DNA of 64,000 bases. It comes from an uncultured Candidatus Saccharibacteria bacterium (lineage in GTDB: Bacteria > Patescibacteriota > Minisyncoccia > Phycocordibacterales > UBA1006). A model generated the notes under the pieces. The model searched no databases. It was given only the letters and a program-made list of their open reading frames with translations, and was not told where the DNA came from. Location: NCBI GenBank assembly GCA_964601935.1, contig CAZROP010000003.1:3366-67365 (forward strand), given 5' to 3'. The translations under genes and the position numbers were made by a program. This document shows, one piece after another, positions 27,084 to 40,316 of this stretch (position 1 is the first letter of the stretch; every line of letters starts with the position of its first letter).

Positions 27084-27158
27084 GGAGCCGGCAGAGGGAC
27101 TCGAACCCACGACCCACGGTTTACAAAACCGTTGCTCTACCAACTGAGCTATGCCGGC
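27083..27158 (-). tRNA. tRNA-Thr (anticodon UGU) with the CCA encoded
   Basis: Cloverleaf: acceptor GCCGGCA/TGCCGGC, D-arm GCTC-AGTTGGTA-GAGC, anticodon stem ACGGT/ACCGT with loop TTTGTAA, and T-loop TTCGAGT. There is one T:T mismatch in the T-stem. The 3' end is TCCA. Confidence 0.75.
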
Positions 27159-27672: not shown

Positions 27673-28131
27673 CTATTCCTCCAGTACCGCTATGCGATAC
27701 ATGCGCCCGATTTCGATACGTTCGCCCAGCTTCTGCATGGATTCCTCCAACAGTCCATGAATCGTGATGTCAGGATTCATCAGGAATGATTCTTCCATGA
27801 TAGTATCTGCTGTCGATCCCATTGCGGTGACATGCATCGCGATATGCTTGCCCAATTCGACAAAATCTTCATTCTTTGCAACAAAGTCCGTCTCGCACAA
27901 TAGCTCCAACATGGTGCCCACTGTTTTGTTGCTGTGTACATAGGTGGTGATGGCGCCGGCGCCTAATACTCGGTCTGCCTTTTTCGCGCTCTGTCCTGCT
28001 GAAAACTCGCGCAACACTTCGCGTGCGCGTTCCATGTCGCCGTTCGCTGCCTCGAGGGCTTCTTTACACTTTGCTACTGAAACTCCCGTTTCTTCTCGTA
28101 GCTGTTTTACTAGGTCAATTGAAATTTCCAT
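27673..28131 (-). CDS. tsf: Elongation factor Ts (short form)
   Basis: The N-terminal UBA-like sequence LVKQLREETGVSVAKCKEALEAANGDMERAREVLR and the ...CETDFVAKNEDF motif are present. Confidence 0.85.
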   Translation of the reverse strand: MEISIDLVKQLREETGVSVAKCKEALEAANGDMERAREVLREFSAGQSAKKADRVLGAGAITTYVHSNKTVGTMLELLCETDFVAKNEDFVELGKHIAMHVTAMGSTADTIMEESFLMNPDITIHGLLEESMQKLGERIEIGRMYRIAVLEE

Positions 28132-28364
28132 AGGTGCTCTATAATGGTGGATTATATTTATAACGTACGAATTATACCATGTGTTGGATATTCTTCGACC
28201 TTGCCCGTTTGTTGAAAAAGTGGTTTTGTTTGGTGCCTTGTACGGTACTCAAAATAGAAGAAAAGATATTTCTCATTCCGTAGGAATTTATTACACATTC
28301 AGTTAGCTTACTACGTGCATAGAATCATTTGCAATATTAAGAATTTCAGTTAGAATAATGGTAT

Positions 28365-28955
28365 ATGAAAAAGTATAAGCTCTCTGAAATCGCAGATATC
28401 CGACTAGGTTATGCTTTTCGTAGTGCGGTTGAGCCAGATCCAAATGGGAATTGTGTCGTTATTCAGGCAAATAATGTGCGTTCAGCAATAGAAGTTGACC
28501 ATAATGGCAGCCTCGTGAGGTGTAGCTTGAACCTGGGTGGTAATCCTCCTTATGCCGCACAGGGGGATGTATTTCTTTCATCTCGTGGATTTGGATTAGG
28601 GTCATATAGTTCTGCTGTGTATACTGGCCAGTCAGAAAAAGTCCTAGTGTCTGCTTCATTATTCATTATTCGTTTGACGGACGTCGGCAAGCAACTAGCT
28701 ACTCCTCATTATATCTCTGGTTTCTTCCGTTCTCCTGTAGGACAGAAATTGCTGGTAGATAGATCGTCAGGCTCTCATGTTCAAACGCTATCCCGCACCG
28801 CTCTGGGTGAAATCGAGATCGTACTACCTGATATTGAAAGACAAAATTCGATTATTGATCTGCAAGAATGCGCACGATACAAGCATGAAGGCTATCGCAG
28901 GAAAATACGACTCGAAACAGAAATTATCAATTCATTATTTACTAGTGTAATATGA
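28365..28955 (+). CDS. hsdS: Type I restriction-modification specificity subunit, half-size (single target-recognition domain)
   Basis: KLSEIADIRLGYAF at the N-terminus of the TRD and the conserved distal helix region LPDIERQNSIIDLQE are present. At 196 aa this is half the usual HsdS length. Confidence 0.65.
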   Translation: MKKYKLSEIADIRLGYAFRSAVEPDPNGNCVVIQANNVRSAIEVDHNGSLVRCSLNLGGNPPYAAQGDVFLSSRGFGLGSYSSAVYTGQSEKVLVSASLFIIRLTDVGKQLATPHYISGFFRSPVGQKLLVDRSSGSHVQTLSRTALGEIEIVLPDIERQNSIIDLQECARYKHEGYRRKIRLETEIINSLFTSVI

Positions 28956-29281
28956 GTACTAAAGCAGAAAAAACAATAAGTGAATCAATGAAGGTGGAGG
29001 TTGCCTTTCCTGGGTGCGTTCATGTCGAATTAGTGCAAGCGAACGATTTGAAACATTATGAGATATTTCTGTGGTTAGTTTCGCTGATGGCCTCGATCGC
29101 TTCTGGGTTTTGGGTGTCCTATGTGTGTACAGCGCCTGTTGATAATGCTATTGGTTGGTCCGCTGTTGCATTTACAGTACTAACTCTCGTATTTGGATCG
29201 ATTGCGTATTACTACAGATCTAGGATCAACGATACAAAGATAAAAAAGACATTCTTACTTGAAAGCTTTAATAACAAATAA
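28952..29281 (+). CDS. Small 2-TM membrane protein of unknown function, translationally coupled to the R-M operon
   Basis: An ATGA overlap with the upstream hsdS stop. It has two hydrophobic helices and ends 5 nt before the hsdM start. Confidence 0.4.
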   Translation: MSTKAEKTISESMKVEVAFPGCVHVELVQANDLKHYEIFLWLVSLMASIASGFWVSYVCTAPVDNAIGWSAVAFTVLTLVFGSIAYYYRSRINDTKIKKTFLLESFNNK

Positions 29282-29285
29282 ACAT

Positions 29286-30797
29286 ATGAACAACAAAAAA
29301 TACACACAAGAAGACCTCAACAAAATCCTTTGGGACGCAGCGGATTCTTCTCGTACACAGGTGGATGCCGGAATCTACAAGGACTACGTGCTTGCGATTC
29401 TTTTCTTCAAATACCTGAGCGACCTCTCGAAGAAAAAGCTCAACGAGTACAAGGAGCGTTTCGGGAACGATGAAAAGCGTACCGAAGAAAAAATGAAGCT
29501 CGATCGATTCTATCTTCCTCCGAAGTCGTCATTTGATTACATCTATTCAATCATTGAGCAGGACAATCTTGGTGAGGAAATAAACAAAGCACTTCATCGT
29601 ATTGAGGATGCCAACAAGGAAAAGCTTGACGGTGTATTTTCTGTAGATTTCAACTCAGAATCAACTCTTGGAAAACTTGCGGAACGAAATAAAATGCTTC
29701 GTCATCTTATACAGGACTTCGCAAAGATGGATCTCGCTGATGTGAATGACGACATCATCGGAAATTCGTACATGTACATGATCGAACGCTTTGGAGCCGA
29801 TGCTGGTAAAAAAGCTGGAGAATTTTTCACTGTGCGTAACGTTGCAAAGCTTGTGGCAAAGCTCGCAGAACCAAAGGCCGGTGCTCGTATCTGTGACCCT
29901 TGTGCTGGATCTGGAGGCCTCCTCCTTCTTGCTGGTGAAGAAGTTGAAAAGCAGGGTTCAAAGAACTACGCTCTCTATGGACAAGAATCAACAGGTTCAA
30001 CATATCAACTCGCTCGTATGAACATGTTCCTTCACGGAAAGGACTCAGCACGTATCGAATGGGGCGACACGCTCAATAATCCACTCCTTGTAGAAAATGA
30101 TCAGCTCATGAAGTTCGACACGATCGTTGCGAATCCTCCATTCTCTCTCAAAAAATGGGGTGCCGAGCATGCTGATGCAGATAAGTACAAGCGATTCTGG
30201 CGCGGTACTCCACCAAAGGATAAGGGTGATTTTGCATTCATCGCTCACATGGTTGAAGCAGCAAAGCCAAAGACTGGTCGCATCGCAGTCATTGTTCCGC
30301 ACGGCGTTCTTTTCCGAGGTGGTGCCGAAGGTAAGATTCGCGAACAACTTCTTAAAGAGAACATTGTCGAGGCAGTCATCGGACTTCCTGCAGGACTTTT
30401 CCAGACAACTGGTATTCCCGTAGCTGTCCTTGTAATTGATCGTTCAAGAGAAAAAGGTGGAGCAAATGAAAACAAAAAAGATGTCTTCTTCATCGAAGCG
30501 TCAAAGGAGTTTAAGTCAAACAAAGCTCAGAATATTCTTACCGATGAAAATATCGAGAAGATTTACTCTACGTACAAAACTCGAAAGGACGTAGCGAAGT
30601 TCGCTCGCAAGGTAAGTCTCAAGGAAATCGAGGAGAATGATTTCAATCTCAACATCACTCGTTATGTGGACACATTCACAGAGGAAGCCCCCGTAGATAT
30701 CAAAGCAAACTTGAAGGAGCTTGCTGAGCTTGAGCCACAGCTCGAGAAGCTTGAGAAACAAATGGTCGTATATCTAAAGGAACTAGGAATCAAATAA
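29286..30797 (+). CDS. hsdM: Type I restriction-modification N6-adenine DNA methyltransferase subunit M
   Basis: The HsdM N-terminal domain (LWDAADSSR....YKDYVLAILFFKYLSD), the AdoMet motif I (CDPCAGSGG) and the catalytic NPPF (VANPPFSLKKW) are present. Confidence 0.9.
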   Translation: MNNKKYTQEDLNKILWDAADSSRTQVDAGIYKDYVLAILFFKYLSDLSKKKLNEYKERFGNDEKRTEEKMKLDRFYLPPKSSFDYIYSIIEQDNLGEEINKALHRIEDANKEKLDGVFSVDFNSESTLGKLAERNKMLRHLIQDFAKMDLADVNDDIIGNSYMYMIERFGADAGKKAGEFFTVRNVAKLVAKLAEPKAGARICDPCAGSGGLLLLAGEEVEKQGSKNYALYGQESTGSTYQLARMNMFLHGKDSARIEWGDTLNNPLLVENDQLMKFDTIVANPPFSLKKWGAEHADADKYKRFWRGTPPKDKGDFAFIAHMVEAAKPKTGRIAVIVPHGVLFRGGAEGKIREQLLKENIVEAVIGLPAGLFQTTGIPVAVLVIDRSREKGGANENKKDVFFIEASKEFKSNKAQNILTDENIEKIYSTYKTRKDVAKFARKVSLKEIEENDFNLNITRYVDTFTEEAPVDIKANLKELAELEPQLEKLEKQMVVYLKELGIK

Positions 30798-30801
30798 ATA
30801 T

Positions 30802-31302
30802 ATGGCAGATACAAAAAGACAAGTTTTCTATAGTTTCCACTATAAGCCAGATGCGTGGCGTGTTTCTCAGGTTCGAAATATCGGAACTATTGAGGGTAAC
30901 AAACCTGCTCCAGATAACGATTGGGAAACTGTTACAAAGGGTGGTGATGAGGCTATAAAGAAATGGATCAAAGACCAGATGAAGTATCGATCTTGCACTG
31001 TTGTTCTCGTTGGAAAAGATACTGCCAACCGAAAGTGGATAAACCATGAAATTGTCGAGTCATGGAAGGCTGGTATGGGTGTTGTTGCGATTCATATATA
31101 CGGTTTGAAAAATCACGACGGCTACATCACCACTCAGGGAAGTAATCCATTTGATTACATATCTTACGGAGACAAAAAGCTCTCTTCGATTGCCAAATGC
31201 TATAACCCTGCAGGAACCAATAGCAAAGAAAGATATGACTGGATTTCACGGAACATGTCAGCCATGGTCGAAGAAGCTGTAAAAATCAGAAATAACAATT
31301 AA
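30802..31302 (+). CDS. ThsB-like TIR-domain protein (Thoeris ThsB / DUF1863 TIR-like family)
   Basis: KRQVFYSFHYKPDAWRVSQVRN...CTVVLVGKDTANRKWINHEIVES...VVAIHIYGLKNHDGYITTQGSNPFDYISY aligns with my recollection of B. cereus ThsB (KRVFFSFHYQDVIDFRVNVVRN...VTCVLIGSQTFNRRWVRYEIMKS...IIGIHINAFKDKYGNIKSKGPNPFDYLGY). That includes the putative catalytic Glu in (Y/H)EI. Confidence 0.65.
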   Translation: MADTKRQVFYSFHYKPDAWRVSQVRNIGTIEGNKPAPDNDWETVTKGGDEAIKKWIKDQMKYRSCTVVLVGKDTANRKWINHEIVESWKAGMGVVAIHIYGLKNHDGYITTQGSNPFDYISYGDKKLSSIAKCYNPAGTNSKERYDWISRNMSAMVEEAVKIRNNN

Positions 31303-31307
31303 TATTT

Positions 31308-31712
31308 ATGAGTACAAACGAAAAAAGACTAAAGCATTTGGAACTGATACAAGGAGTGATAACGAGAATGGGTAGTAACCTATTCACTCTTCGTGGGTGG
31401 ATGATAACGCTCGTTGTTGGTCTCTCTGTGGCTTTCTTGGAAGTTGGCCGCAACGAGCTGCAAGTAATATTGGTTCTAGTTATTTTGATATTCTGGGTAC
31501 ATGATGCTTATTTTCTCTCCCTGGAGCGTGGATACCGATGCTTGTACAACAAAGTAAGGAAGTTGGATGAGGATGCTATTGATTTCTCAATGGATATTTC
31601 AGAGTTTGATGTTTTGAAAACAATATCAATTTGGTACTGCATGTGGTCTAAGACATTGTCCTTTTTCTATGTACCGACACTAATATTAATAGCCCTAATA
31701 AGTATATTCTAG
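31308..31712 (+). CDS. Small 3-TM membrane protein. Candidate pore-forming effector (SLATT-like?) of the TIR cassette
   Basis: 134 aa with an amphipathic N-terminal helix, TM1 (LFTLRGWMITLVVGLSVAFL), TM2 (VILVLVILIFWVHDAYFL), a ~45-aa loop and a C-terminal TM (FFYVPTLILIALISIF). It is tightly packed between two TIR genes. The effector role is inference. Confidence 0.45.
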   Translation: MSTNEKRLKHLELIQGVITRMGSNLFTLRGWMITLVVGLSVAFLEVGRNELQVILVLVILIFWVHDAYFLSLERGYRCLYNKVRKLDEDAIDFSMDISEFDVLKTISIWYCMWSKTLSFFYVPTLILIALISIF

Positions 31713-31714
31713 CC

Positions 31715-32401
31715 ATGGATACATCTCGAAAAATATTTGTTTGCTATAAATACAAAGATTGGGGTGTTCAGCCTCTTGTTGAATATACGCCGACAGAGGA
31801 CACAGACTATCTCCACACACCTCGACATTATGTCGATAAAATAATAGAAGTTGTTGGAGCTGATCATATCTATAAAGGAGAGCGAAGTGGTGAAAGTATG
31901 GGAGATTTGGCGGACGACACCATTGACTCAAAGCTCAAAGAGAAAATCTTCGACAGCTCTGTCACTGTCGTGCTGATCTCGCCAAATATGTTTGACAGGT
32001 CAACATTAGAAAAAGATCAGTGGATCCCTAACGAAATTTCCTACTCACTCCGCTATAAAACTAGAGGATATAGAACAAGTAATCCAAATGCGATGCTTGC
32101 AGTAGTTCTGCCTGATAGAAATGGTAGCTATGATTATGCTGTGGTCCATCAAAATTGTGTGACAACATGGCGCACAGATACCTATTTTACTATCCTGAAC
32201 GAAAATATGTTCAATAGAAAAAGCAAGAATCAAAGACCTTGTGGTACATGCGGCAGTCACCACCATTTTGGAGATGATCATTCATATATTCACCCAGTCA
32301 AATGGTCTGACTTCATTTCTAACCACAATATCTATATCGATCATGCTTTATCACTAAGAGAAAACTTGCATCATTTCGATATCACAAAAATGCACGATTA
32401 A
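31715..32401 (+). CDS. Second TIR-like (DUF1863/ThsB-type) domain protein with a Cys/His-rich C-terminal extension
   Basis: KIFVCYKYKD...SSVTVVLISPNMFDRS...QWIPNEISYSL follows the TIR-like signature (F.SY..D....VVLIS.N...S.W...EI.Y.L). The C-terminus is CGTCGSHHHFGDDHSYIHP. Confidence 0.5.
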   Translation: MDTSRKIFVCYKYKDWGVQPLVEYTPTEDTDYLHTPRHYVDKIIEVVGADHIYKGERSGESMGDLADDTIDSKLKEKIFDSSVTVVLISPNMFDRSTLEKDQWIPNEISYSLRYKTRGYRTSNPNAMLAVVLPDRNGSYDYAVVHQNCVTTWRTDTYFTILNENMFNRKSKNQRPCGTCGSHHHFGDDHSYIHPVKWSDFISNHNIYIDHALSLRENLHHFDITKMHD

Positions 32402-32406
32402 TCATT

Positions 32407-34077
32407 ATGAAAAAAAACTCTCAATTAAAACTACATATCTCCCTAAGCAAGGAACACAATAAGTATCAGTCCGACGTGGTCGATGCCTTTAAGGGTGTAG
32501 ATGTTTCCTTTGACGGTGGACTCATGAGGTTTTCTTCTGGTGAGTTGGCTATGCAGATCATGCTGGCTATCGGTACAGGTGTTATATCGAGTGCTATGTG
32601 GGACGTCATTAAAGCTGGAATAAAAAAGCTTTATAAGAAGTTCAATACCTCACGCATCACCCTCAGAGATTCAGATTCGATAATGTATACAATTAAGCCA
32701 GATTTCTCTGTAACTGTTTTAGTTGTTCCAGATAGAGCTAAGGAGTTTGAACATATTAAGACATTTGATGATCTTGTTATTTATTTTCAAAATAACTCCA
32801 ACCCAAAAAATAATACTGGTTGGCAATTAGTGCCAGTAAGCGATGTTTTTACGTTTGTGAAATCTTACGCGTTTTCTAGAGACAACCTAACTAATGGAGT
32901 ATTAACAGAAGAAAAGATTGGCAACATACACTATGGTGATATCCATGCCACATATACATCAGAAAATGTAGATCTATCAAAGATACAAATACCAATTGTA
33001 AAAGAGGCTAGTTTTAATCCTAAAAAAGAAGATCTTCTTAAGGATGGTGACTTGATAATGGCTGATGCTTCTGAGGATTATGATGGTATTGGCGTAACTA
33101 TTTCAGTTCATGGTATCGGCAAAAATAAAGTCGTGGGAGGTCTACATACTTTTGTACTTAGAGATGAAAAAGGTAAGACCAGTGAATACTATCGTCAATA
33201 TATTTTTCTAAATAGAGAGATCAGAAATAAGCTACAAAAAGTAGCCAACGGTGTTTCTGTGTATGGAATCTCAAAAACAGCTCTCTCAAAAATGGAGCTG
33301 CCGCTACCATCTCTGTCGGAACAAAATCGTATTGTCTCAGTCCTTGAAACTTGGGATAAATCAATCGAGAAGCTTGCTCAAAAAATTGAAGCAAAGAAGC
33401 AGGTCAAGAAAGCCCTGATACAGGATTTACTAACCGGCAAGAAACGATTACCGGGATTTAATAAAAATTGGGAAATCACTGAACTTAAAAAGATTGCAGA
33501 AATATTTTCTGGTGGCACCCCTGATACTGGCAATAGGGATTTTTGGGACGGCAATATAAATTGGATAACTCCAACTGAAATTACTAAAACAGGTAAATAT
33601 ATCATTCAGAAGACAGAGAAAAAGATTACAGATTTGGGTCTTAAAAATAGTTCTGCAAAACTACTCCCTAAAAATTCTTTAATTATATGCACCCGTGCGA
33701 CTGTTGGGGAATGTGCGATTTCTACATATCCCATTTCAACCAATCAGGGTTTTAAGAATCTTGTTCCAAAGAGTAATACAAATGTTGAGTACCTTTATTA
33801 TTTTATAAAATCAATTAAAAATAGGCTTATAAAACTAGGATCAGGCAGTACGTTCTTAGAGGTTTCAAAAGGTGATATTGAAAAGCTAAAAATACATTTA
33901 CCGCCTGTAGATGAGCAAGTCGCAATTGCCCAGATACTAGCGACGGCAGACAAAGAAATCACCGAACTCGAAAAGAAACTCTCAATACTCAAAGAACAGA
34001 AACGATACCTCCTCAATAATCTGATCACCGGCACGATCCGCACACCCGAAACATTATCAACCAAACTAACCCAATAA
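32407..34077 (+). CDS. hsdS: Type I restriction-modification specificity subunit, full length with two target-recognition domains
   Basis: The central conserved region LPLPSLSEQNRIVSVLETWDKSIEKL and the distal one LPPVDEQVAIAQILATADKEITELEKKL are present. The two variable TRDs give 556 aa. Confidence 0.85.
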   Translation: MKKNSQLKLHISLSKEHNKYQSDVVDAFKGVDVSFDGGLMRFSSGELAMQIMLAIGTGVISSAMWDVIKAGIKKLYKKFNTSRITLRDSDSIMYTIKPDFSVTVLVVPDRAKEFEHIKTFDDLVIYFQNNSNPKNNTGWQLVPVSDVFTFVKSYAFSRDNLTNGVLTEEKIGNIHYGDIHATYTSENVDLSKIQIPIVKEASFNPKKEDLLKDGDLIMADASEDYDGIGVTISVHGIGKNKVVGGLHTFVLRDEKGKTSEYYRQYIFLNREIRNKLQKVANGVSVYGISKTALSKMELPLPSLSEQNRIVSVLETWDKSIEKLAQKIEAKKQVKKALIQDLLTGKKRLPGFNKNWEITELKKIAEIFSGGTPDTGNRDFWDGNINWITPTEITKTGKYIIQKTEKKITDLGLKNSSAKLLPKNSLIICTRATVGECAISTYPISTNQGFKNLVPKSNTNVEYLYYFIKSIKNRLIKLGSGSTFLEVSKGDIEKLKIHLPPVDEQVAIAQILATADKEITELEKKLSILKEQKRYLLNNLITGTIRTPETLSTKLTQ

Positions 34078-34081
34078 ACAT

Positions 34082-37000
34082 ATGTCACTCACAAACGTAA
34101 ATTTCGATGAAGCCAAGCAGTCACAGCTCCCATTCGTTGAGCTCCTGTTGAACATGGGCTACACATATGTTTCTGTTGCCGAAGCGCTCAGACAGCGAGG
34201 TGATACTTCGAACTTCATCCTTGCTGACATTGCAACAGAAAGGCTCATGGAGATAAACGGTTACGAGGTTGATGGTACCGAATACAAATTCAGCGAGAAG
34301 GATGTACGAGATGCTATCGACGAACTTGAGCACATCCAGTATGAGGGACTTATTGATACCGCTCAGAAAGTTTACAACATAATCATGCCGACAAGCGGAG
34401 GTAAGACGATCAAGGTGAATCACGGGGGCAAGAAGGTATCTAAGAACTTTAAGTTCATCGACTTCGAGAACATCGAGAAGAATGCTTTTCATGTATCTGT
34501 GGAATATGTCGCTAGTGGCAAGCAGAATATTCGTCCTGATATCGTTGTTTTTGTAAACGGTATCCCTTTTGCAGTGATTGAGAATAAGAAATCTAGTGTT
34601 GCCGTAGCTGAGGCACTCAACCAAATGAACCGTAATCAGGGTCCAGAATTCTGTCCGAAGCTTTTTACCTATACTCAGTTACTCGTTGCGACCAATGGCA
34701 AGGAGTTGCAGTATGGGACGACTGGCACACCAAACAAGTTCTATGCAGTTTGGAAAGAGAAAGGCACAGATTTGAAAACACTCAATACTCAGGTGTCTAC
34801 CTTGATCAAAAAGAAAATTGAACCCACCGTATATGCACAGTTGTTGCAAGACCTGAACGGATATACTGATGGCCATAAACAGCGAACAAGTAGGCTTCCG
34901 ACAGAGCAGGATCGAGGAGTATTTTCGTTATTTGAACCAAAACGACTACTGGATCTGACCAAGAACTATATTCTGTTCGACGCAGGTGTAAAGAAACTCT
35001 CACGATACCAGCAGTATTTTGCTATTCACAAGATGCTCAAGCGTGTAGAAGAGGAGGAGATTACTGACCATGGCATTACTCGCCGTAAGGGCGGACTGGT
35101 GTGGCATACTCAAGGATCAGGTAAATCGCTGACTATGGTGATGTTTGTGAAGGCGCTCATTGAAGATCCGCATATCCTCAATCCTCGCGTGATTATTGTC
35201 ACTGATCGTCGGGATTTGGATAAGCAAATCAAAGATACCTTCAAAAACTGCAACCTCAAGAAAGAGGTTGTTCAGGCTACCAGCGGTCAAAACCTCATTG
35301 ATCTCATCAAGGAGAAGGACTTGTCCGTCGTCACTACGCTCGTTCAGAAGTTTGAATCAGCTGCAAAGAAGAGCGTGGGGTTTGTGGATGATGACAAGAA
35401 CATTTTTGTTCTCATTGACGAAGCACACCGAAGTCAGAACGGTATGGCAAACTTCGAGATGAATAGAATCATCCCGAATGCGTGTTACATCGGATTCACA
35501 GGTACTCCACTTATGAAGAAGGACCGAGAGAGTTGGAAGAAGTTCGGTGACTACATCGACAGGTACACGATCGATGACGCCTTGGCTGACAAGATTATTC
35601 TTCCGCTTATTTACGAAGGTCGATATGTCGACTTGATTCAGAATGCTGAACAAATTGATCGTAGGGTTTCCAGAATTACTGATGGCTTGAGTGATAAACA
35701 AAAGAAGGAGTTACAGAAATTTGCCGGGACAAAGCTGATCAAGAGTAACCCGAATAGAATTGCAGAGATTGCGATCGACGTCGAAAATCACTTCGTTCAA
35801 AATTTCCAAGGCACAGGGCTCAAGGCTCAGCTGGTCGCACCTTCAAAGTTCTCTGCTGTATTGTTTCAGAAGTCTTTTGAAGCAAGCGGCAAAGTCCGTA
35901 CTGCGGTAATTATTTCTGATGAACACGAGGATGGCGATGATGAAAACCTCCACAAGAAAGAGGTCGTTGGGTACCTAGAGGGAATTCGCAAGAATCATAG
36001 CAGTGTTGAGAAATACGAAAAAGACGTCGTCGATAGTTTTAAGTATAACGATGATGGTATCGAAATCATTATTGTGGTAGACAAACTACTTACAGGGTTT
36101 GATGCGCCGCGAAATACGGTACTCTACCTCGCGAAGGATTTACGAGATCATAACCTACTCCAGGCTATCGCTCGTGTGAATCGACTGTACGAGAACAAGA
36201 AAGAGAAGCCGAAGACCGCAGGATATATCATGGATTATTCTGAAAATGCAAAGAATATCGATACTGCAATGAAGCTCTTTGGCAACTATGATGAAGGAGA
36301 TGTCAGGGGAACACTTATTGATGTATCTGAGAAGATACAGGAGCTCGAACAGAGTTACTCGCTAGTTCATGATCTATTCAAGGAAATAAAGGGATCGTCT
36401 GACGATGAGGAGTATTTACAATTCCTGGCAGACCAGCCAAAAAGAGAGACATTTTACAAGACCCTTAATGCATTTATAAAGAATTTGAGTGAATGTTTTG
36501 TGCTGCAAGATTTTGTTCATGAGTTCAAGCATCTCGACCTCTATAAGCGTGAGTTAAAGAAGTTTGCTGAATTGCGCAAGTCGGCAAGTCTGCAGTATGC
36601 TGATCGTGTTGATTTACTCGAATACAAGCAGTCACTCATTAATATCCTCGATAGGTATGTGGATGCTCGTGGTGTCGAATTGCTCACAAAACAAGTCAAT
36701 ATTACAGACAGGGCACAGTTTGAGCAAGCGGTAGCTAACCTAGGGTCAGACAAATCAAAAGCGGAAGCAATTGCTGCACAAACCGAAAAAACTATCACAG
36801 AAAAGATGGATAGTGATCCTGAATTTTACGAGAAGTTTTCAAAAAAGATTTCAGAGATTCTGGAGAAAATGCGCCAAGGAAAGCTTGCTGATGTGGAAGC
36901 GCTGAAACAAATGAAGGTGATTAGTAGTGACGTCGTGAATAAAAAAGACGAAAGCCTGCCCGAGAAGATTGAGTCACAGAAGGGGGCAGACGTATTTTAT

Positions 37001-37273
37001 CGTAATATTCGAGCAGGGCTTGATGGACTGAATCTGGACGAGGACACCTATATCTCTATAGTTCTCGATATCTTTTCTATCATCAAGAATGAAGCAATTG
37101 TAGACTGGTACAAGAATGGCGATGTGAAGCGCAAAATACGAAACAGCATCGATGATTATCTGTATGATGTTGTAAGAGGTGAAAAAGCTATTGATATTGA
37201 TAATGATCGTATTAGATCGATTATAGATACTGTATTGCATTTGGCAGAACATAACTTCGAATTGTTCATCTAA
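34082..37273 (+). CDS. hsdR: Type I restriction enzyme R subunit (endonuclease/helicase)
   Basis: The N-terminal PD-(D/E)xK nuclease (RPDIVVFVNGIPFAVIENKK), SF2 helicase motif I (TQGSGKSLTMV), motif II (LIDEAHRSQ), QxxR, and the long C-terminal helical domain are present. Confidence 0.9.
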   Translation: MSLTNVNFDEAKQSQLPFVELLLNMGYTYVSVAEALRQRGDTSNFILADIATERLMEINGYEVDGTEYKFSEKDVRDAIDELEHIQYEGLIDTAQKVYNIIMPTSGGKTIKVNHGGKKVSKNFKFIDFENIEKNAFHVSVEYVASGKQNIRPDIVVFVNGIPFAVIENKKSSVAVAEALNQMNRNQGPEFCPKLFTYTQLLVATNGKELQYGTTGTPNKFYAVWKEKGTDLKTLNTQVSTLIKKKIEPTVYAQLLQDLNGYTDGHKQRTSRLPTEQDRGVFSLFEPKRLLDLTKNYILFDAGVKKLSRYQQYFAIHKMLKRVEEEEITDHGITRRKGGLVWHTQGSGKSLTMVMFVKALIEDPHILNPRVIIVTDRRDLDKQIKDTFKNCNLKKEVVQATSGQNLIDLIKEKDLSVVTTLVQKFESAAKKSVGFVDDDKNIFVLIDEAHRSQNGMANFEMNRIIPNACYIGFTGTPLMKKDRESWKKFGDYIDRYTIDDALADKIILPLIYEGRYVDLIQNAEQIDRRVSRITDGLSDKQKKELQKFAGTKLIKSNPNRIAEIAIDVENHFVQNFQGTGLKAQLVAPSKFSAVLFQKSFEASGKVRTAVIISDEHEDGDDENLHKKEVVGYLEGIRKNHSSVEKYEKDVVDSFKYNDDGIEIIIVVDKLLTGFDAPRNTVLYLAKDLRDHNLLQAIARVNRLYENKKEKPKTAGYIMDYSENAKNIDTAMKLFGNYDEGDVRGTLIDVSEKIQELEQSYSLVHDLFKEIKGSSDDEEYLQFLADQPKRETFYKTLNAFIKNLSECFVLQDFVHEFKHLDLYKRELKKFAELRKSASLQYADRVDLLEYKQSLINILDRYVDARGVELLTKQVNITDRAQFEQAVANLGSDKSKAEAIAAQTEKTITEKMDSDPEFYEKFSKKISEILEKMRQGKLADVEALKQMKVISSDVVNKKDESLPEKIESQKGADVFYRNIRAGLDGLNLDEDTYISIVLDIFSIIKNEAIVDWYKNGDVKRKIRNSIDDYLYDVVRGEKAIDIDNDRIRSIIDTVLHLAEHNFELFI

Positions 37274-37277
37274 CCTT

Positions 37278-37982
37278 ATGAAAGAATTCATATTTGGAAC
37301 GTTTATATATGAATACCAACTTTTAAAACAAGATCGTAAAACGCTCTCCCTCACTGTTACCCCAGACCTACGTATTATCGTTAAGTGTCCACAGGCTGCA
37401 GATGATGACCGTATTGAAGCCTTCTTACAAAAGAAGTGGTTCTGGCTTGAGAAGCAACTTTCGTTCTTTAAAAAGTATCAGCGCAAAATGTATGAAAAAG
37501 AGTATGTGTCCGGAGAAGGTTATTTGTATTTGGGTAGACAGTACAAGCTCATTGTTCGAAGGGCTAAAGAAGATTCCGTCTCTCTCACTCGTGGTCAGTT
37601 AGTTGTTCTTACGACAAAGTTAGTTACCGACGGAAAACACAACAAAAAACTTATTGAGGGTTGGTTTGCTGAGAAAACTAGCATCATATTTCAAGATAGA
37701 TTTACTGAAATGCTCAAACGCTTTGATTTTAAGAGTCTTCCAAGGATGTCCACTCGAGGAATGAAGAAGCGTTGGGGTAGTTTCTTGAACCAAGACAAGA
37801 TATTTCTGAATCCGAAACTAATCCACACCTCAAAGGACTGTATTGATTATGTTATCGTTCATGAACTCTGTCATATGAAGTACAAGAATCACGACAAAAA
37901 GTTCTTTGATTTCCTTGACCAAAAGTTTCCTAAGTGGAAAAAGGTAAAGGAAAAGCTTGAAATCATGGGTTCATACTTTTAG
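37278..37982 (+). CDS. YgjP-like (DUF45 / M48-family) zinc metallohydrolase associated with Type I R-M
   Basis: The HExxH motif (VIVHELCHMKYKNHDKKF) is present. The gene is translationally coupled 4 nt after hsdR. YgjP-like genes are a known accessory of hsdR loci. Confidence 0.7.
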   Translation: MKEFIFGTFIYEYQLLKQDRKTLSLTVTPDLRIIVKCPQAADDDRIEAFLQKKWFWLEKQLSFFKKYQRKMYEKEYVSGEGYLYLGRQYKLIVRRAKEDSVSLTRGQLVVLTTKLVTDGKHNKKLIEGWFAEKTSIIFQDRFTEMLKRFDFKSLPRMSTRGMKKRWGSFLNQDKIFLNPKLIHTSKDCIDYVIVHELCHMKYKNHDKKFFDFLDQKFPKWKKVKEKLEIMGSYF

Positions 37983-38061
37983 TAGATAATATGCTGAAAT
38001 TATTCCATTATTACTTAATATACCGTATACTAAAGAATATAAGCTAATCCACAAAAACGTT

Positions 38062-38463
38062 ATGAAAACAGGATACTTTGGGAATATAGAAGAGCTGACT
38101 ATCGAGAACACCAATTTTCGCCAGGTGCTGTATACCGCACAGCACTGCCAGTTGGTGCTGATGTCATTGTTGCCAGGAGAAGAAATAGGGATGGAAGTTC
38201 ACGAAGAAGGTGACCAGTTTTTCCGATTCGAGGCAGGACAGGGTCGCGTCATTGTTGACGATATGGAATACGATGTCGCAGACGGGGATACGGTTATTGT
38301 GCCCGCAGGTGCACAGCATAATGTAGTGAATACCTCTGATTCTGAATCATTGAAATTGTACACACTGTATACGCCACCACATCATATGGATGGCATAGTG
38401 CGTACAACACGTGTCGATGCAATGGACAACGAGGCAGAATTTGATGGTAGTACGACGGAGTAG
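38062..38463 (+). CDS. Cupin-domain protein
   Basis: Cupin motifs G(X)5HXH-like (GEEIGMEVHEEGDQFF) and the second motif (GDTVIVPAGAQHNVVN) are present. Confidence 0.65.
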   Translation: MKTGYFGNIEELTIENTNFRQVLYTAQHCQLVLMSLLPGEEIGMEVHEEGDQFFRFEAGQGRVIVDDMEYDVADGDTVIVPAGAQHNVVNTSDSESLKLYTLYTPPHHMDGIVRTTRVDAMDNEAEFDGSTTE

Positions 38464-38467
38464 GGGA

Positions 38468-38510
38468 AGAACACAAAAGCTGGTCCCATGGGTACCAGCT
38501 TTTGTGTTCT
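38468..38510. repeat. Perfect 17-bp inverted repeat with a palindromic loop and no U-tract
   Basis: AGAACACAAAAGCTGGT-cccatgggt-ACCAGCTTTTGTGTTCT. It lies immediately after the cupin stop. Confidence 0.45.
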
Positions 38511-38591
38511 GTATAGTATTACTTCAACGCATCCAGCAGAGATGCGACATACTATTGACTGATTATGTGTATGGCAGTAATATAATTATAT

Positions 38592-39089
38592 ATGGACAAG
38601 AAGCTCGAACTCATACGATATATTCTGAGTCGGCTAGACGGCGGCGTTGCCGATTTATGGAAGATTTATAAACTAATGTACTTCATTGATTTTGCGTTTT
38701 ACGCTGAACATAAAAAGTCCTTATCAGGAGCAGAATATTATAACTGGCAGTATGGACCGGTTCCTATGAATCAGCAACAGTACTTGATCGAGAATTTGAT
38801 CGAATCAGGAGAAGGGTTAGGGTTGTGGAGAAAAGTGGATCAGAAGTCAGTTCAGGTAAATAATCCTGTGGTAGATAAGGATGGTTTTAATAGCGAAGAG
38901 GTGGCTGTGATTGACGGCGTCTTGTCAAAGTATGGAGGATTGACCGGTAGAGAATTGGTGACGTTGTCACATGAAGACATACCCTGGAAAATGACAAAAG
39001 AAGGAGAAAAAATAGAATATGACTATGTATTTTGGCGAGAAACAGAACCTGTAGAAATTCAGGACATCACTGATCAAGTTTTGAAATAA
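38592..39089 (+). CDS. Panacea-domain (DUF4065, SocA/PanA-like) putative antitoxin
   Basis: LELIRYILSRL.....DLWKIYKLMYFIDFAFYAEHKKSLSGAEYYNWQYGPVP matches the DUF4065 pattern (K..K.LY.....G.....Y..GP). Confidence 0.6.
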   Translation: MDKKLELIRYILSRLDGGVADLWKIYKLMYFIDFAFYAEHKKSLSGAEYYNWQYGPVPMNQQQYLIENLIESGEGLGLWRKVDQKSVQVNNPVVDKDGFNSEEVAVIDGVLSKYGGLTGRELVTLSHEDIPWKMTKEGEKIEYDYVFWRETEPVEIQDITDQVLK

Positions 39090-39090
39090 T

Positions 39091-39459
39091 ATGTCGTCAG
39101 TCAAAGTTTCGACCAGGTTCGCAAAATCTCTCAAAGAGAATAGTAAACACAAAGGACTGGAAAAGGTGCTGGCTCTAAAACTTAAGGAGTTAGATAAGTA
39201 TTTTGATTTGTCATACAAAGTATTGCACAATGATGCTGATTGGTGTATCAAAAAGCTCGATGCAACAAGTACAATCGGGGCGTATCGAATCATTGCCGCA
39301 CGATCTACTGATGGTAAAAAGGTAGTATATGATTTTTACTTTAAAAACTCAAAACAAGACATGAATAAAGCCGAGTTACAAGAACTGGCTGAATTTATAT
39401 CATCCTGTGACTCCGAAGAGTTCTATGTAAATCTTGATGACTTTGTACTTGATAGTTAA
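39091..39459 (+). CDS. Hypothetical 122-aa protein, translationally coupled to the Panacea-domain gene. Candidate toxin partner
   Basis: It starts 2 nt after the upstream stop. I recognise no domain in it. The assignment rests on gene context alone. Confidence 0.35.
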   Translation: MSSVKVSTRFAKSLKENSKHKGLEKVLALKLKELDKYFDLSYKVLHNDADWCIKKLDATSTIGAYRIIAARSTDGKKVVYDFYFKNSKQDMNKAELQELAEFISSCDSEEFYVNLDDFVLDS

Positions 39460-40174: not shown

Positions 40175-40316
40175 GATTGTATATGTGTATTCTTTGCACA
40201 ATCCCGAATGATAATAGGGTGGGATCGTTATTAGCTACTAGGACAAAGAACTAACCCTCTATACACTACTGAAAAATGATGGTATTGCAAGGGGGCGAGA
40301 GGGGGAGGGTGACCAG

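What the first reader, a model, noticed from the sequence alone, without database searches (positions are those of the whole stretch)
28365..37982. Type I R-M operon with two specificity genes (half-size S upstream, full-size S downstream) plus an embedded small TM protein
A single hsdM/hsdR pair is accompanied by a 196-aa single-TRD HsdS and a 556-aa two-TRD HsdS. The two could assemble alternative methyltransferase/restriction complexes with different specificities.

The half-S gene overlaps a 109-aa 2-TM ORF by ATGA coupling. That ORF has no known role in R-M. The YgjP-like peptidase at the 3' end is the usual hsdR companion.
Basis: partly seen in the sequence, partly recalled or inferred. 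Interest (0 to 1): 0.5.

Follow-up and report, generated by a model that had tools for sequence, protein, structure and literature searches.

The report
Type I restriction operon, extra short S
This is a nine-gene Type I restriction-modification operon from a widespread clade that always carries a conserved half-size "S" gene in front of the methylase gene and a slot for extra anti-phage genes. The half-size S is a working gene, but it is probably a helper subunit, not a second DNA specificity.

Summary
The description is incomplete in two ways.

- Three further genes (TIR, membrane protein, TIR; PADLOC candidate PDC-M50) lie between hsdM and hsdS.
- The 556-aa "S" is a 130-aa extra domain fused to a normal ~420-aa two-TRD S.

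The 196-aa half-S is not a pseudogene:
- It belongs to a large family of ~190-aa proteins (1478 hits).
- It folds as one TRD plus one 39-residue helix (pLDDT 94).
- The family is under purifying selection (dN/dS 0.09-0.19).

All 75 loci found through HsdM similarity carry a half-S directly upstream of hsdM, mostly translationally coupled. Complete loci read: half-S, hsdM, variable defence cargo, long hsdS, hsdR, ygjP.

Long-S TRDs are shuffled mosaics. The half-S is never shuffled and co-diverges with HsdM. In the only experimentally studied system with this layout (staphylococcal hsdRSMS), the short S added no palindromic motif and was needed for proper methylation.

I therefore favour an accessory-subunit role (about 0.45) over an independent second specificity (about 0.3). 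No shuffling cassettes exist. The 109-aa membrane ORF is a real, highly conserved but optional gene of unknown role.

The parts
28329..28356 (+). Promoter-like site TTGCAA-N16-TAGAAT, ending 8 nt before the half-S ATG (leaderless-type arrangement)
   Evidence: The consensus scan lists it, but the scan as a whole is not above chance. Support comes from conservation: nearly all related loci have -35, ~17 nt, (tg)CAGTAnnnT, 6-8 nt, then the half-S ATG. Function is inferred.
28365..28955 (+). Half-size S (196 aa): one TRD plus one C-terminal coiled-coil helix (aa 157-195)
   Evidence: Pfam and PADLOC hits. Family of ~190-aa proteins, 1478 hits. Family invariants G15 F18 R19 Q34 Q127 Q160 are kept. 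AF2 pLDDT 94.4. Best fold match is the Esub1 half-S homodimer, TM 0.71-0.75.
28952..29281 (+). 109-aa two-TM protein, ATGA-coupled to the half-S; stop lies 4 nt before the hsdM ATG
   Evidence: Sequence. At least 50 homologous clusters at 56-72% identity; mean column identity 76%. Lies between half-S and hsdM in every context examined. TM segments from the hydropathy scan.
29286..30797 (+). hsdM (503 aa), HsdM_N + N6_Mtase
   Evidence: Pfam 4.5e-100. 65-97% identical to 75 loci. Nearest solved relatives: PacII M, 3LKD, EcoR124I M.
30802..31302 (+). Cargo gene 1: ThsB-type TIR protein (166 aa) = PDC-M50B
   Evidence: Pfam ThsB_TIR 3e-26. PADLOC ThsB 1.5e-66 and PDC-M50B 1e-62. PDB 8WCF 2.5e-35 and ThsB1 3e-20.
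31308..31712 (+). Cargo gene 2: 134-aa membrane protein = PDC-M50A (about three hydrophobic segments)
   Evidence: PADLOC PDC-M50A 2e-38. Hydropathy scan. Unrelated to the 109-aa ORF.
31715..32401 (+). Cargo gene 3: second ThsB-type TIR protein (228 aa)
   Evidence: PADLOC ThsB model PDLC00428 2e-68. PDB 9VYL 'TIR1' 4e-53.
32407..32796 (+). N-terminal ~130-aa extra domain fused in frame to hsdS
   Evidence: No family hit. Stand-alone 130-aa homologues P0201 and P0202. In L094 the stand-alone gene overlaps the hsdS start. Also fused in L066 and L067. AF2 pLDDT 80.8, alpha/beta fold, no confident structural relative.
32797..34077 (+). hsdS proper: TRD1 (~aa 137-295), CR1 (~296-348), TRD2 (~352-495), CR2 (~496-546)
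   Evidence: Two Methylase_S stretches. 1YF2 at 5e-71. Conservation profile shows variable TRDs and conserved CRs. TRD1 is 86-87% identical to L013/L014; TRD2 is 82% identical to L040.
34082..37273 (+). hsdR (1063 aa): HSDR_N nuclease, SF2 motor, C-terminal domain
   Evidence: Pfam. PADLOC REase_I 3e-150. EcoR124I HsdR 2e-41.
37278..37982 (+). YgjP-like (DUF45/SprT-type) zinc metallopeptidase, 234 aa, with an HELCH motif
   Evidence: Pfam 1.9e-51. Follows hsdR in every complete related locus annotated. Annotated as SprT family in M. rosea pGW6_2.

Best explanation
The region is one tightly packed nine-gene operon. Gaps between genes are at most 5 nt, and one pair overlaps by 4 nt. It belongs to a widespread, horizontally mobile, Type IC-like R-M clade with a fixed layout:

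promoter, short S, (optional 109-aa membrane protein), hsdM, variable anti-phage cargo, long two-TRD hsdS, hsdR, ygjP.

**Shown**
- DNA specificity that diversifies by TRD swapping resides in the long S.
- The short S is a separate, conserved, non-shuffling gene that co-diverges with hsdM and is almost always translationally coupled to it.

**Inferred, by analogy with the staphylococcal hsdS_short**
- The short S is an accessory partner of HsdM. It may act as an assembly or stabilising subunit, or as a holdase made together with HsdM while the long S is translated 1-4 kb further downstream.
- It is needed for efficient, faithful methylation and restriction at the long-S site. It does not add a second, palindromic specificity.

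**Cargo in this locus**
- TIR, membrane protein, TIR. This is the PADLOC candidate PDC-M50 plus an extra ThsB-like TIR. It is most likely a back-up abortive-infection-type module (inferred).
- The 130-aa domain fused to HsdS and the 109-aa membrane protein are additional accessory parts of unknown role.
For: **Anatomy:**

**Clade-wide layout**
- All 75 HsdM-sampled loci have a half-S directly upstream of hsdM.
- The stop-to-start gap is at most 10 nt in 54 of 60 loci, median 4 nt.
- 48 of 49 complete loci have cargo between hsdM and hsdS.
- The same layout holds for distant family members and on Methylocystis rosea plasmid pGW6_2.

**Evolutionary contrast, mean pairwise identity**

| Component | Identity | Spearman vs HsdM |
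|---|---|---|
| HsdM | 80.5% | - |
| Long-S conserved regions | 59-62% | 0.37-0.44 |
| Long-S TRDs | 19% | 0.06-0.11 |
| Half-S TRD | 42% (never below 21%) | 0.66 |
| Half-S helix | 35% | 0.47 |

- At HsdM identity of 95% or more, the half-S is usually 75-90% identical.
- dN/dS is 0.09-0.19 for the half-S and 0.01-0.08 for HsdM and HsdR.
- The half-S type of TRD almost never occurs inside two-TRD proteins: 2 of the 150 best hits.

**Experiment in a system with the same layout (PMC10030836)**
- hsdS_short + M + S_long gave one asymmetric motif at 93-98% methylation.
- Without hsdS_short, methylation fell to 19-49% and was aberrant.
- No palindromic motif appeared.
- The staphylococcal short S scores better against the half-S profile (39 bits; hhalign probability 96.7%) than ordinary TRDs do (11-25 bits).
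Against: - Homology to the staphylococcal short S is remote: 17% identity for the short S and 36% for HsdM. The functional transfer is therefore an analogy.
- That study did not measure HsdM protein. Loss of translational coupling could explain part of its phenotype, as its authors caution.
- The half-S has everything a homodimeric specificity subunit needs: a complete TRD and a helix colinear with, and as long as, a long-S conserved region.
- Type IC-like enzymes are exactly the family in which half-S dimers work (PMC3874165).
- In this window the half-S is an outlier. It is 35% identical to the half-S of loci whose HsdM is 96% identical. Nucleotide homology to those loci starts 2 nt before the hsdM ATG. 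That looks like allele swapping of a specificity module.
- No structural rationale is known for how a half-S would assist an M2S1 complex.
Confidence: 0.45

Rival explanations
1. First reader's reading. The half-S homodimerises through its C-terminal helix, binds two HsdM (and HsdR), and forms a second methyltransferase/restriction complex with a palindromic bipartite target. One hsdM/hsdR pair would then serve two specificities.
For: - The protein is a complete TRD plus a 39-residue helix. Its best fold match is the crystallographic half-S homodimer Esub1.
- The helix aligns without gaps to the central conserved region of the long S and ends at the equivalent point.
- The gene is translationally coupled to hsdM.
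- HsdM and HsdR are EcoR124I-like.
- Precedents: truncated EcoR124I and EcoDXXI S, natural NgoAV, M.AhdI 2M+2S (PMC3874165); CC398-1 half-S (PMC6158711); a lactococcal single-TRD S that added TTAA N5 TTAA methylation and phage resistance (PMC12418389).
- The half-S evolves 3-5 times faster than HsdM. Its most variable segment is aa 36-66.
- The 5' module appears to have been swapped in this window.
Against: - There is no TRD shuffling and no diversifying selection; dN/dS is 0.1-0.2.
- The half-S is never found as the only S in 49 complete loci.
- Its helix is only 27% identical to the cognate conserved region and is far less conserved than the regions that must fit the highly conserved HsdM.
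- The staphylococcal short S produced no palindromic motif (PMC10030836).
- Esub1 did not detectably bind HsdM (PMC11754733).
Confidence: 0.3
2. The half-S is a DNA-binding controller of the operon. As the first, leaderless gene it would bind as a dimer to conserved boxes in its own promoter and time or limit expression, like C proteins of Type II systems or RptR of Type I islands.
For: - It is the first gene, with the -10 element 6-8 nt from its ATG in nearly all loci.
- A 'CAGTA' box sits at the -10 in 43 of 76 loci. A second box lies near -63 in 20 of 76 loci; shuffles give 5.6 on average and at most 14.
- The window, which has a divergent half-S, has its own variant of the box, TTCAGTTAG, at both positions.
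- The authors of the Esub1 structure proposed a transcription-factor role for that half-S homodimer (PMC11754733).
- RptR shows that first-gene repressors of Type I islands exist (PMC12255303).
- Expression of the staphylococcal short S alone was toxic (PMC10030836).
Against: - No consistent bipartite palindrome with fixed spacing exists at the boxes (inspection).
- Repeated k-mers between the proximal and distal regions are not enriched overall.
- The proximal box is confounded with the -10 element.
- According to the Type I review, S subunits do not bind DNA without M (PMC3874165).
- Tight coupling to hsdM fits a stoichiometric partner better than a regulator.
Confidence: 0.1
3. The half-S gene in this window is a decaying remnant of a truncated hsdS, or a silent cassette for hsdS phase variation.
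For: - The window copy is unusually divergent from those of its nearest HsdM relatives.
- Its Pfam score is low, 25.7 bits.
Against: - The ORF is intact and full length, and identical in two samples.
- It keeps all six family-invariant residues.
- The model is confident.
- The family is under purifying selection.
- There are no repeats shared with hsdS, no inverted repeats and no recombinase; both S genes are on the same strand.
Confidence: 0.03

Closest known systems
Staphylococcal plasmid/SCC 'hsdRSMS' Type I variant (hsdS_short + hsdS_long; Schiffer et al. 2023, PMC10030836)
   Same: - A ~191-aa single-TRD-like S lies immediately upstream of hsdM, with a ~400-aa variable two-TRD S downstream.
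- The short S is conserved, never occurs as part of a long S, and does not recombine with it.
- HsdM and HsdR are nearest to Type IC.
- The system sits on mobile DNA.
   Different: - Sequence relationship is remote: hhalign 96.7% probability at 17% identity for the short S; HsdM 36% identical.
- In staphylococci hsdR is upstream, hsdM overlaps hsdS_long, there is no embedded cargo and no YgjP.
- In the clade found here, cargo separates hsdM from hsdS, and hsdR-ygjP follow.
Homodimeric half-S subunits: EcoR124I(delta50), EcoDXXI deltaC/deltaN, NgoAV, M.AhdI S ('Type 1 1/2') (PMC3874165); CC398-1 half-S (PMC6158711)
   Same: One TRD plus one dimerisation helix, ending where a central conserved region ends. 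The enzyme background is Type IC-like.
   Different: - Those are truncations of, or replacements for, the only S subunit and define the specificity alone.
- Here the half-S is an independent conserved family that always coexists with a complete long S. Its helix is not a copy of the long-S conserved regions (27% identity).
Esub1 of Streptococcus pyogenes (PDB 8VSQ/8VSR; PMC11754733)
   Same: Best sequence match (E 2e-3) and best fold match (TM 0.71-0.75) among solved structures. It is a 198-aa half-S that crystallises as a homodimer mimicking a full S.
   Different: Esub1 is encoded away from any hsd genes, did not detectably bind HsdM, and is bound by the phage protein paratox. Here the gene is coupled to hsdM.
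Defence genes embedded in Type I R-M operons (PrrC; 'guilt-by-embedding' candidates, Payne et al. bioRxiv 10.1101/2024.01.29.577857), including PADLOC PDC-M50
   Same: - Co-oriented anti-phage genes nested between hsd genes.
- The TIR (166 aa) and membrane (134 aa) proteins match PDC-M50B and PDC-M50A at 1e-62 and 2e-38.
   Different: - This locus has an additional 228-aa ThsB-like TIR and a further 130-aa domain fused to HsdS.
- In this clade the cargo slot is essentially obligatory (48 of 49 loci) and sits specifically between hsdM and hsdS.
Thoeris (ThsA/ThsB)
   Same: Two ThsB-type TIR proteins. Both carry a W-I-x-x-E-I motif (TIR166 WINHEI, TIR228 WIPNEI). From my own knowledge, this is where the catalytic glutamate of ThsB lies.
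   Different: There is no ThsA (SIR2 or Macro) effector. The only candidate effector is a small membrane protein.

Membership tests
Type I restriction-modification system | HsdM: HsdM_N domain plus gamma-class N6-adenine methyltransferase domain with the NPPF motif | tested here: met
   Pfam N6_Mtase 4.5e-100 and HsdM_N 4e-20. 'ANPPFS' is present in the translation.
Type I restriction-modification system | HsdR: N-terminal nuclease domain plus SF2 ATPase motor | tested here: met
   Pfam HSDR_N 2e-34, SWI2_SNF2 8e-78, ResIII 5e-24. EcoR124I HsdR 2e-41.
Type I restriction-modification system | HsdS with two variable TRDs separated by two conserved coiled-coil regions | tested here: met
   Two Methylase_S stretches. 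1YF2 5e-71. Variable TRDs and conserved CRs across 49 loci.
Type I restriction-modification system | ATP-dependent translocation, distant cleavage, bipartite m6A target | not testable with these tools
   Requires biochemistry or a methylome.
Type IC family (EcoR124I-like) | HsdM and HsdR closest to the IC prototypes; subunit complementation | tested here: inconclusive
   Among solved structures the EcoR124I subunits are the closest of the classical family prototypes (HsdM 8e-68, HsdR 2e-41, against EcoKI HsdM 1e-19). Complementation is not testable.
Homodimeric half-S specificity subunit (EcoDXXI deltaC / NgoAV / M.AhdI S type) | Single TRD followed by one dimerisation helix of conserved-region length | tested here: met
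   AF2 model has a TRD plus helix 157-195. Gap-free alignment to long-S residues 280-342. Fold matches.
Homodimeric half-S specificity subunit (EcoDXXI deltaC / NgoAV / M.AhdI S type) | It is the system's sole specificity determinant, either a truncation of the S gene or the only S gene | tested here: not met
   A complete long S coexists with it in every complete locus annotated. The half-S is an independent family of ~190-aa proteins: 146 of the 150 best hits are 140-250 aa.
Homodimeric half-S specificity subunit (EcoDXXI deltaC / NgoAV / M.AhdI S type) | Methylation of a palindromic bipartite motif | not testable with these tools
   No methylome is available for this organism or for the carriers identified.
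hsdS_short of the staphylococcal hsdRSMS variant | ~190-aa single-TRD-like gene immediately upstream of hsdM, with a long S downstream | tested here: met
   75 of 75 loci. In the window, half-S at 28365-28955, hsdM at 29286.
hsdS_short of the staphylococcal hsdRSMS variant | Conserved along its whole length and not exchanged with long-S TRDs, while the long-S TRDs vary | tested here: met
   Caveat: the window's own copy is a divergent allele (35% identity where HsdM is 96% identical).
hsdS_short of the staphylococcal hsdRSMS variant | Specific sequence homology to the staphylococcal short S | tested here: inconclusive
   hhalign probability 96.7%, E 4.5e-10, 17% identity. Profile score 39 bits against 11-25 bits for ordinary TRDs.
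hsdS_short of the staphylococcal hsdRSMS variant | Required for full, correct methylation at the long-S motif; adds no motif of its own | not testable with these tools
   Known only for S. xylosus constructs in E. coli (PMC10030836).
Phase-variable hsdS shufflon | Inverted repeats shared by hsdS copies, plus a nearby recombinase | tested here: not met
   The longest repeats in 28000-38200 are 20-30 nt at 70-88% identity. None links the two S genes. Both S genes are on the same strand and there is no recombinase.
PADLOC candidate system PDC-M50 | PDC-M50A (small membrane protein) next to PDC-M50B (TIR-like) | tested here: met
   2e-38 and 1e-62. The two genes are adjacent (31308-31712 and 30802-31302).
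Thoeris | ThsB TIR together with a ThsA effector (SIR2 or Macro domain) | tested here: not met
   Two ThsB-type TIRs are present. No ThsA-like protein was found among the nine operon genes or the three downstream genes.
YgjP-like (DUF45) metallopeptidase | YgjP domain with an HExxH zinc site | tested here: met
   Pfam 1.9e-51. 'HELCH' is present in the translation.

The most novel reading that the evidence does not exclude
The short S is a constitutive fourth subunit that defines a distinct, very widespread Type I family (short S, M, long S, R, with YgjP). It is made together with HsdM from a leaderless mRNA. It either holds and loads HsdM onto the long S or also reads conserved boxes in its own promoter. 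This is what allows the family to carry an almost obligatory defence-cargo slot between hsdM and hsdS. The 109-aa membrane protein and the 130-aa domain fused to HsdS would be further, so far unrecognised, accessory partners of the complex.
Probability: 0.3. Interest if true: 0.7.

Novelty: new variant of a known kind. Interest (0 to 1): 0.48.

Why it matters
**Annotation and methylome assignment**
- Type I enzymes are taught as R2M2S1 machines with one S gene. Here a second, half-size S gene is a fixed feature of a large clade. It is common in Patescibacteria and also occurs on plasmids of cultured Alpha- and Gammaproteobacteria.
- Databases call the gene simply "restriction endonuclease subunit S". 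Its role has been probed experimentally only once, in a remote staphylococcal relative.
- If it is an accessory subunit, methylome-to-gene assignments and motif predictions should not count it as a second specificity. Heterologous reconstitution of these systems should include it.
- If instead it is a second specificity, one M/R pair serves two targets in thousands of genomes.

**Defence-gene discovery**
- The clade has an almost obligatory cargo slot holding Shedu, CBASS, PARIS-like, TIR, Bro-N and other genes. This makes it a rich hunting ground for defence genes in uncultured bacteria.

**Testability**
- Cultured carriers (Methylocystis rosea GW6, Gluconobacter oxydans 621H, Minisyncoccus archaeiphilus) make the question directly testable.

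Tried and rejected
- **Word-indexed protein search with the half-S** found only itself. The exhaustive HMMER search was needed.
- **The search for related loci with half-S alignments** failed twice because no sufficiently conserved 7-10-column stretch exists. I sampled loci through HsdM instead.
- **Shufflon or cassette idea** rejected: no meaningful repeats.
- **Pseudogene idea** rejected.
- **Homology between the 109-aa ORF and the 134-aa PDC-M50A membrane protein** rejected (BLASTP E 0.13).
- **A 20-nt direct repeat at the two gene starts** (family D19) is just similar N-terminal codons.
- **Fixed-spacing palindromic operator upstream of the half-S:** none was consistent. Proximal/distal k-mer repeats are not enriched over shuffles.
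- **Membrane anchor idea for the HsdS N-terminal extension** not supported: hydropathy maximum 1.52, and the AF2 model is a soluble alpha/beta domain. Foldseek gave only weak tautomerase/MIF-like hits (TM at most 0.43), so I do not assign a fold.
- **Literature on PDB entries 9VYL and 8WCF, and on TIR1/TIR2 systems,** gave nothing usable.
- **Published methylome for Minisyncoccus or other carriers:** none found.
- **Staphylococcal accessions** had to be tried in RefSeq form.
- **Host identity** was not verified directly. Patescibacteria is inferred from the closest loci.

Full report
**1. What is in the sequence**

Between 28365 and 37982 there are nine co-oriented ORFs on the + strand. Gaps between them are at most 5 nt, and one pair overlaps by 4 nt.

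| Gene | Coordinates | Size | Key evidence |
|---|---|---|---|
| Half-size S | 28365-28955 | 196 aa | Pfam Methylase_S, one stretch; PADLOC Specificity_I 1e-15 |
| Membrane ORF | 28952-29281 | 109 aa | ATGA overlap confirmed; two hydrophobic segments |
| hsdM | 29286-30797 | 503 aa | Likely ATG at 29286; the ORF lister's TTG at 29259 is probably not the start |
| ThsB-type TIR | 30802-31302 | 166 aa | PADLOC ThsB 1.5e-66, PDC-M50B 1e-62 |
| Membrane protein | 31308-31712 | 134 aa | PDC-M50A 2e-38 |
| Second ThsB-type TIR | 31715-32401 | 228 aa | PADLOC ThsB model 2e-68 |
| S ORF | 32407-34077 | 556 aa | Two Methylase_S stretches |
| hsdR | 34082-37273 | 1063 aa | Pfam and PADLOC |
| YgjP-like peptidase | 37278-37982 | 234 aa | Pfam 1.9e-51 |

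The same string of genes is present in two independent samples.
- the three genes between hsdM and hsdS were not mentioned;
- only residues ~136-556 of the 556-aa protein are HsdS.

**2. The 556-aa S is a fusion**

- Residues 1-130 have no family match.
- Homologues exist as stand-alone 130-aa proteins (P0201 and P0202, 52% and 45% identity).
- On contig L094 the stand-alone gene overlaps the start of a downstream ORF whose N-terminus looks like an HsdS start, although it gave no significant match.
- In two divergent loci (L066, L067) the domain is fused to HsdS as it is here.
- The AF2 model (pLDDT 80.8) is a soluble alpha/beta domain with only weak, non-significant tautomerase/MIF-like matches. 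Hydropathy does not support a membrane helix.
- Its role is unknown. The repeated fusion suggests that it works with HsdS (inference).

**3. The half-S is a real, conserved gene**

- An exhaustive HMMER search found 1478 relatives (218 below 1e-10). Of the 150 best, 146 are 140-250 aa (nearly all 185-212 aa) and nearly all of them match over essentially the whole query; only two are two-TRD proteins, and those match only the generic core.
- The window protein keeps all six residues that are invariant in a 40-sequence alignment.
- AF2 gives pLDDT 94.4. The model is a globular TRD followed by a single helix, residues 157-195.
- Foldseek's best hits are the Esub1 half-S homodimer (TM 0.71-0.75), followed by S subunits of BsaXI, PacII, M. 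jannaschii and EcoKI.
- The helix aligns without gaps to the central conserved region of the long S (27% identity over 63 residues) and ends at the equivalent point.
- In close pairs of related loci, dN/dS of the half-S is 0.09-0.19, against 0.01-0.08 for HsdM and HsdR.

**4. The two-S layout is the hallmark of a whole clade**

The closest half-S relatives sit in operons reading half-S, hsdM, cargo, long hsdS, hsdR, ygjP.

To avoid circularity I sampled by HsdM instead. A profile of four HsdM proteins retrieved 75 loci from species-representative genomes, with HsdM 65-97% identical.
- Most are Patescibacteria (Nomura-, Pacei-, Sacchari-, Moranbacteria and others).
- Also present: Nitrosomonas, Nitrotoga, Omnitrophota, Melainabacteria, gammaproteobacterial MAGs, and the cultured Minisyncoccus archaeiphilus.

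Annotating all ORFs with profiles of the window proteins gave these results:
- A half-S homologue lies immediately upstream of hsdM in all 75 loci.
- The stop-to-start distance is at most 10 nt in 54 of 60 measurable loci (median 4 nt, five overlaps).
- Of 49 non-redundant complete loci, 48 have 0.7-3.8 kb of co-oriented cargo between hsdM and the long hsdS. Eighteen have more cargo between hsdS and hsdR.
- All 49 have hsdR and, on the annotation, a YgjP homologue after it.

Distant family members (E ~1e-12) show the same linkage. So does plasmid pGW6_2 of Methylocystis rosea, where HsdM is 57% identical and PGAP annotates two "restriction endonuclease subunit S" genes. Thirty-six PLSDB plasmids of cultured bacteria carry relatives.

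**5. How the two S genes evolve**

Mean pairwise identity across the 49 loci:

| Component | Mean identity | Spearman vs HsdM |
|---|---|---|
| HsdM | 80.5% | - |
| HsdR | 70% | 0.84 |
| Long-S conserved regions | 62% and 59% | 0.37 and 0.44 |
| Long-S TRDs | 19% (median ~17%, occasional jumps to 60-93%) | 0.06-0.11 |
| Half-S TRD | 42% (minimum 21%) | 0.66 |
| Half-S helix | 35% | 0.47 |

- The long-S pattern is the classical TRD-swapping signature.
- When HsdM is at least 95% identical, the half-S is usually 75-90% identical. The half-S therefore behaves like a fast-evolving but vertically inherited partner of HsdM, not like a swappable specificity cassette.
- Its helix is much less constrained than the long-S regions that must fit the highly conserved HsdM.
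- **Exception in this window:** HsdM is 96% identical to L012 and L013, but the half-S is only 35% identical. Nucleotide homology to the closest loci begins 2 nt before the hsdM ATG (29284). It stops at the hsdM stop and resumes in the hsdS conserved regions and from 33947 through hsdR-ygjP.
- Promoter + half-S + 109-aa ORF, the cargo and the TRDs are thus replaceable modules on a conserved backbone. I could not resolve whether the 5' module was swapped or simply diverged fast.

**6. Experimental precedent**

The literature search found one directly relevant study. Staphylococcal plasmids and SCC elements carry hsdR, hsdS_short (191 aa), hsdM, hsdS_long (PMC10030836).
- The short S is conserved, never part of a long S, and detected in proteomic data.
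- In E. coli, hsdS_short + M + S_long methylated a single asymmetric motif (TCA N6 CTC or ACAY N5 GGT) at 93-98%.
- Without hsdS_short, only weak, aberrant motifs appeared (19-49%).
- No palindromic motif was seen.
- The N-terminal half of S_long alone gave nothing.
- hsdS_short expressed alone was toxic.
- The authors concluded that it is unlikely to recognise the target and may stabilise the complex. They caution that protein levels were not measured.

I retrieved the S. equorum copy (L100).
- Its short S matches the half-S profile at hhalign probability 96.7% but only 17% identity.
- It scores 39 bits, against 11-25 bits for ordinary TRDs.
- Its HsdM is 36% identical to the window's.
- Both systems are nearest to Type IC (PMC10030836).

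The relationship is therefore remote, although the architecture is the same.

On the other side, half-S dimers of Type IC enzymes do make functional palindrome-specific enzymes:
- EcoR124I, EcoDXXI, NgoAV and M.AhdI (PMC3874165);
- CC398-1 (PMC6158711);
- a lactococcal single-TRD S that added a motif and phage resistance (PMC12418389).

**7. Interpretation**

- **Best explanation (about 0.45).** The short S is an accessory partner of HsdM. It is required for efficient and faithful function at the long-S site and does not provide an independent specificity.
  - Shown: its conservation, its linkage and translational coupling to hsdM, its non-mosaic evolution, and its constant coexistence with a long S.
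  - Inferred by analogy: the functional role.
- **Main rival (about 0.3).**
- **Regulator model (about 0.1).** It has some circumstantial support.
  - Nearly all loci have -35, ~17 nt, (tg)CAGTAnnnT, 6-8 nt, then the half-S ATG. This implies a leaderless transcript.
  - A second CAGTA box lies near -63 in 20 of 76 loci, against 5.6 expected from shuffles.
  - The window has its own variant, TTCAGTTAG, at 28298-28306 and 28345-28353.
  - Against it: no fixed-spacing palindrome exists, there is no overall repeat enrichment, and the proximal box is confounded with the -10 element.
- **Pseudogene or shufflon readings** are essentially excluded.

**8. The 109-aa ORF**

- It is a genuine gene. At least 50 clusters share 56-72% identity, and mean column identity is 76%.
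- The N-terminal ~35 residues are almost invariant (ESMKVEVAFPECVHIELVQANDLKHYEIFLWL) and are followed by two membrane segments.
- In every context examined it lies between the half-S and hsdM.
- It is present in only 3 of the 75 HsdM-sampled loci (in addition to this window), and its presence does not depend on the cargo type.
- It is unrelated to the PDC-M50A membrane protein.
- Its function is unknown.

**9. The cargo**

- The TIR (166 aa) and membrane (134 aa) pair is the PADLOC candidate PDC-M50. PADLOC's PDC (phage defence candidate) models come from the "guilt-by-embedding" approach, which screened genes embedded in Type I R-M, BREX and DISARM systems (bioRxiv 10.1101/2024.01.29.577857).
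- The extra 228-aa TIR matches PDB 9VYL "TIR1" (4e-53). TIR166 matches 8WCF and ThsB1.
- There is no ThsA, so this is not Thoeris in the strict sense.
- A census of 122 cargo ORFs from the 49 loci found:

| Cargo family | ORFs |
|---|---|
| Bro-N | 17 |
| ThsB TIR | 8 |
| AAA_15/AAA_21, PARIS-like AriAB fusions | 8 |
| Shedu SduA | 6 |
| SMODS/CBASS | 5 |
| KilA-N | 5 |
| DUF4145 | 4 |
| RhuM | 3 |
| NYN | 3 |

- A back-up role when the R-M enzyme is inhibited (PrrC-like logic) is plausible but inferred.

**10. Setting**

- The ~11.4-kb island also contains a cupin gene and a SocA/Panacea pair. It separates tsf (27673-28131) from rpsB (39497-40201), two genes that are normally adjacent. That adjacency is general knowledge, not tested here.
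- No integrase is present.
- The host is probably a patescibacterium. This is inferred from the closest loci and was not verified.

**11. Verdict**

The half-S is functional, but an independent second specificity is not the favoured reading.
- The locus is a new variant of a known kind: a Type IC-like R-M operon with a short and a long S gene and embedded defence cargo.
- Its interest lies in the clade-wide, essentially unstudied short S, and in the testable prediction about methylation motifs in cultured carriers.

Noticed in passing
window 27673-28131 (tsf, -) and 39497-40201 (rpsB, -): The ~11.4-kb defence island lies between rpsB and tsf, which are normally adjacent. No integrase is present. 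tRNA-Thr at 27083-27158 lies 1.2 kb beyond tsf.
   Followed up: partly
window 38062-39459: Downstream of YgjP there is a cupin gene (38062-38463), then a SocA/Panacea antitoxin-like gene (38592-39089) abutting an unannotated 122-aa ORF (39091-39459). The last two look like a toxin-antitoxin-like pair.
   Followed up: partly
window 28298-28306 and 28345-28353; related loci L011-L085, upstream of the half-S: A conserved promoter places the -10 element 6-8 nt from the half-S ATG, implying a leaderless mRNA. A 'GTGCAGTA' box sits at the -10 and, in about a quarter of loci, again near -63. The window has its own 9-nt repeat, TTCAGTTAG, at both positions.
   Followed up: partly
window 32407-32796; L094 599-991; L066; L067: The 130-aa N-terminal domain of the 'HsdS' ORF is a stand-alone gene in some contigs and is fused to HsdS in three divergent loci. 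It has no family or confident fold assignment.
   Followed up: yes
loci L003-L085, between hsdM and hsdS: 48 of 49 complete loci have a cargo slot between hsdM and hsdS. It holds Shedu, CBASS, PARIS-like AriAB fusions (~604 aa), Bro-N/PDC-S13, KilA-N, RhuM, NYN and TIR sets. PARIS is known to be triggered by the anti-restriction protein Ocr.
   Followed up: partly
L012 9432-9917: In this locus the half-S is only 161 aa, lacks the C-terminal helix, and is followed by an 83-nt gap before hsdM. It may be a decayed copy or an assembly error.
   Followed up: no
L066 (CAZCGN010000008.1): A full operon of this clade, with the fused HsdS N-domain, sits on a contig binned as a Methanosarcinales archaeon. 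This is either inter-domain transfer or a binning error.
   Followed up: no
L096 5377-5547: A different 56-aa ORF occupies the position between half-S and hsdM in a distant member. This junction may be a second small insertion slot.
   Followed up: no
window 26415-27143 (-): The 242-aa ORF listed here runs across tRNA-Thr (27083-27158). Its N-terminus is probably spurious; the real membrane-protein gene likely starts downstream.
   Followed up: no
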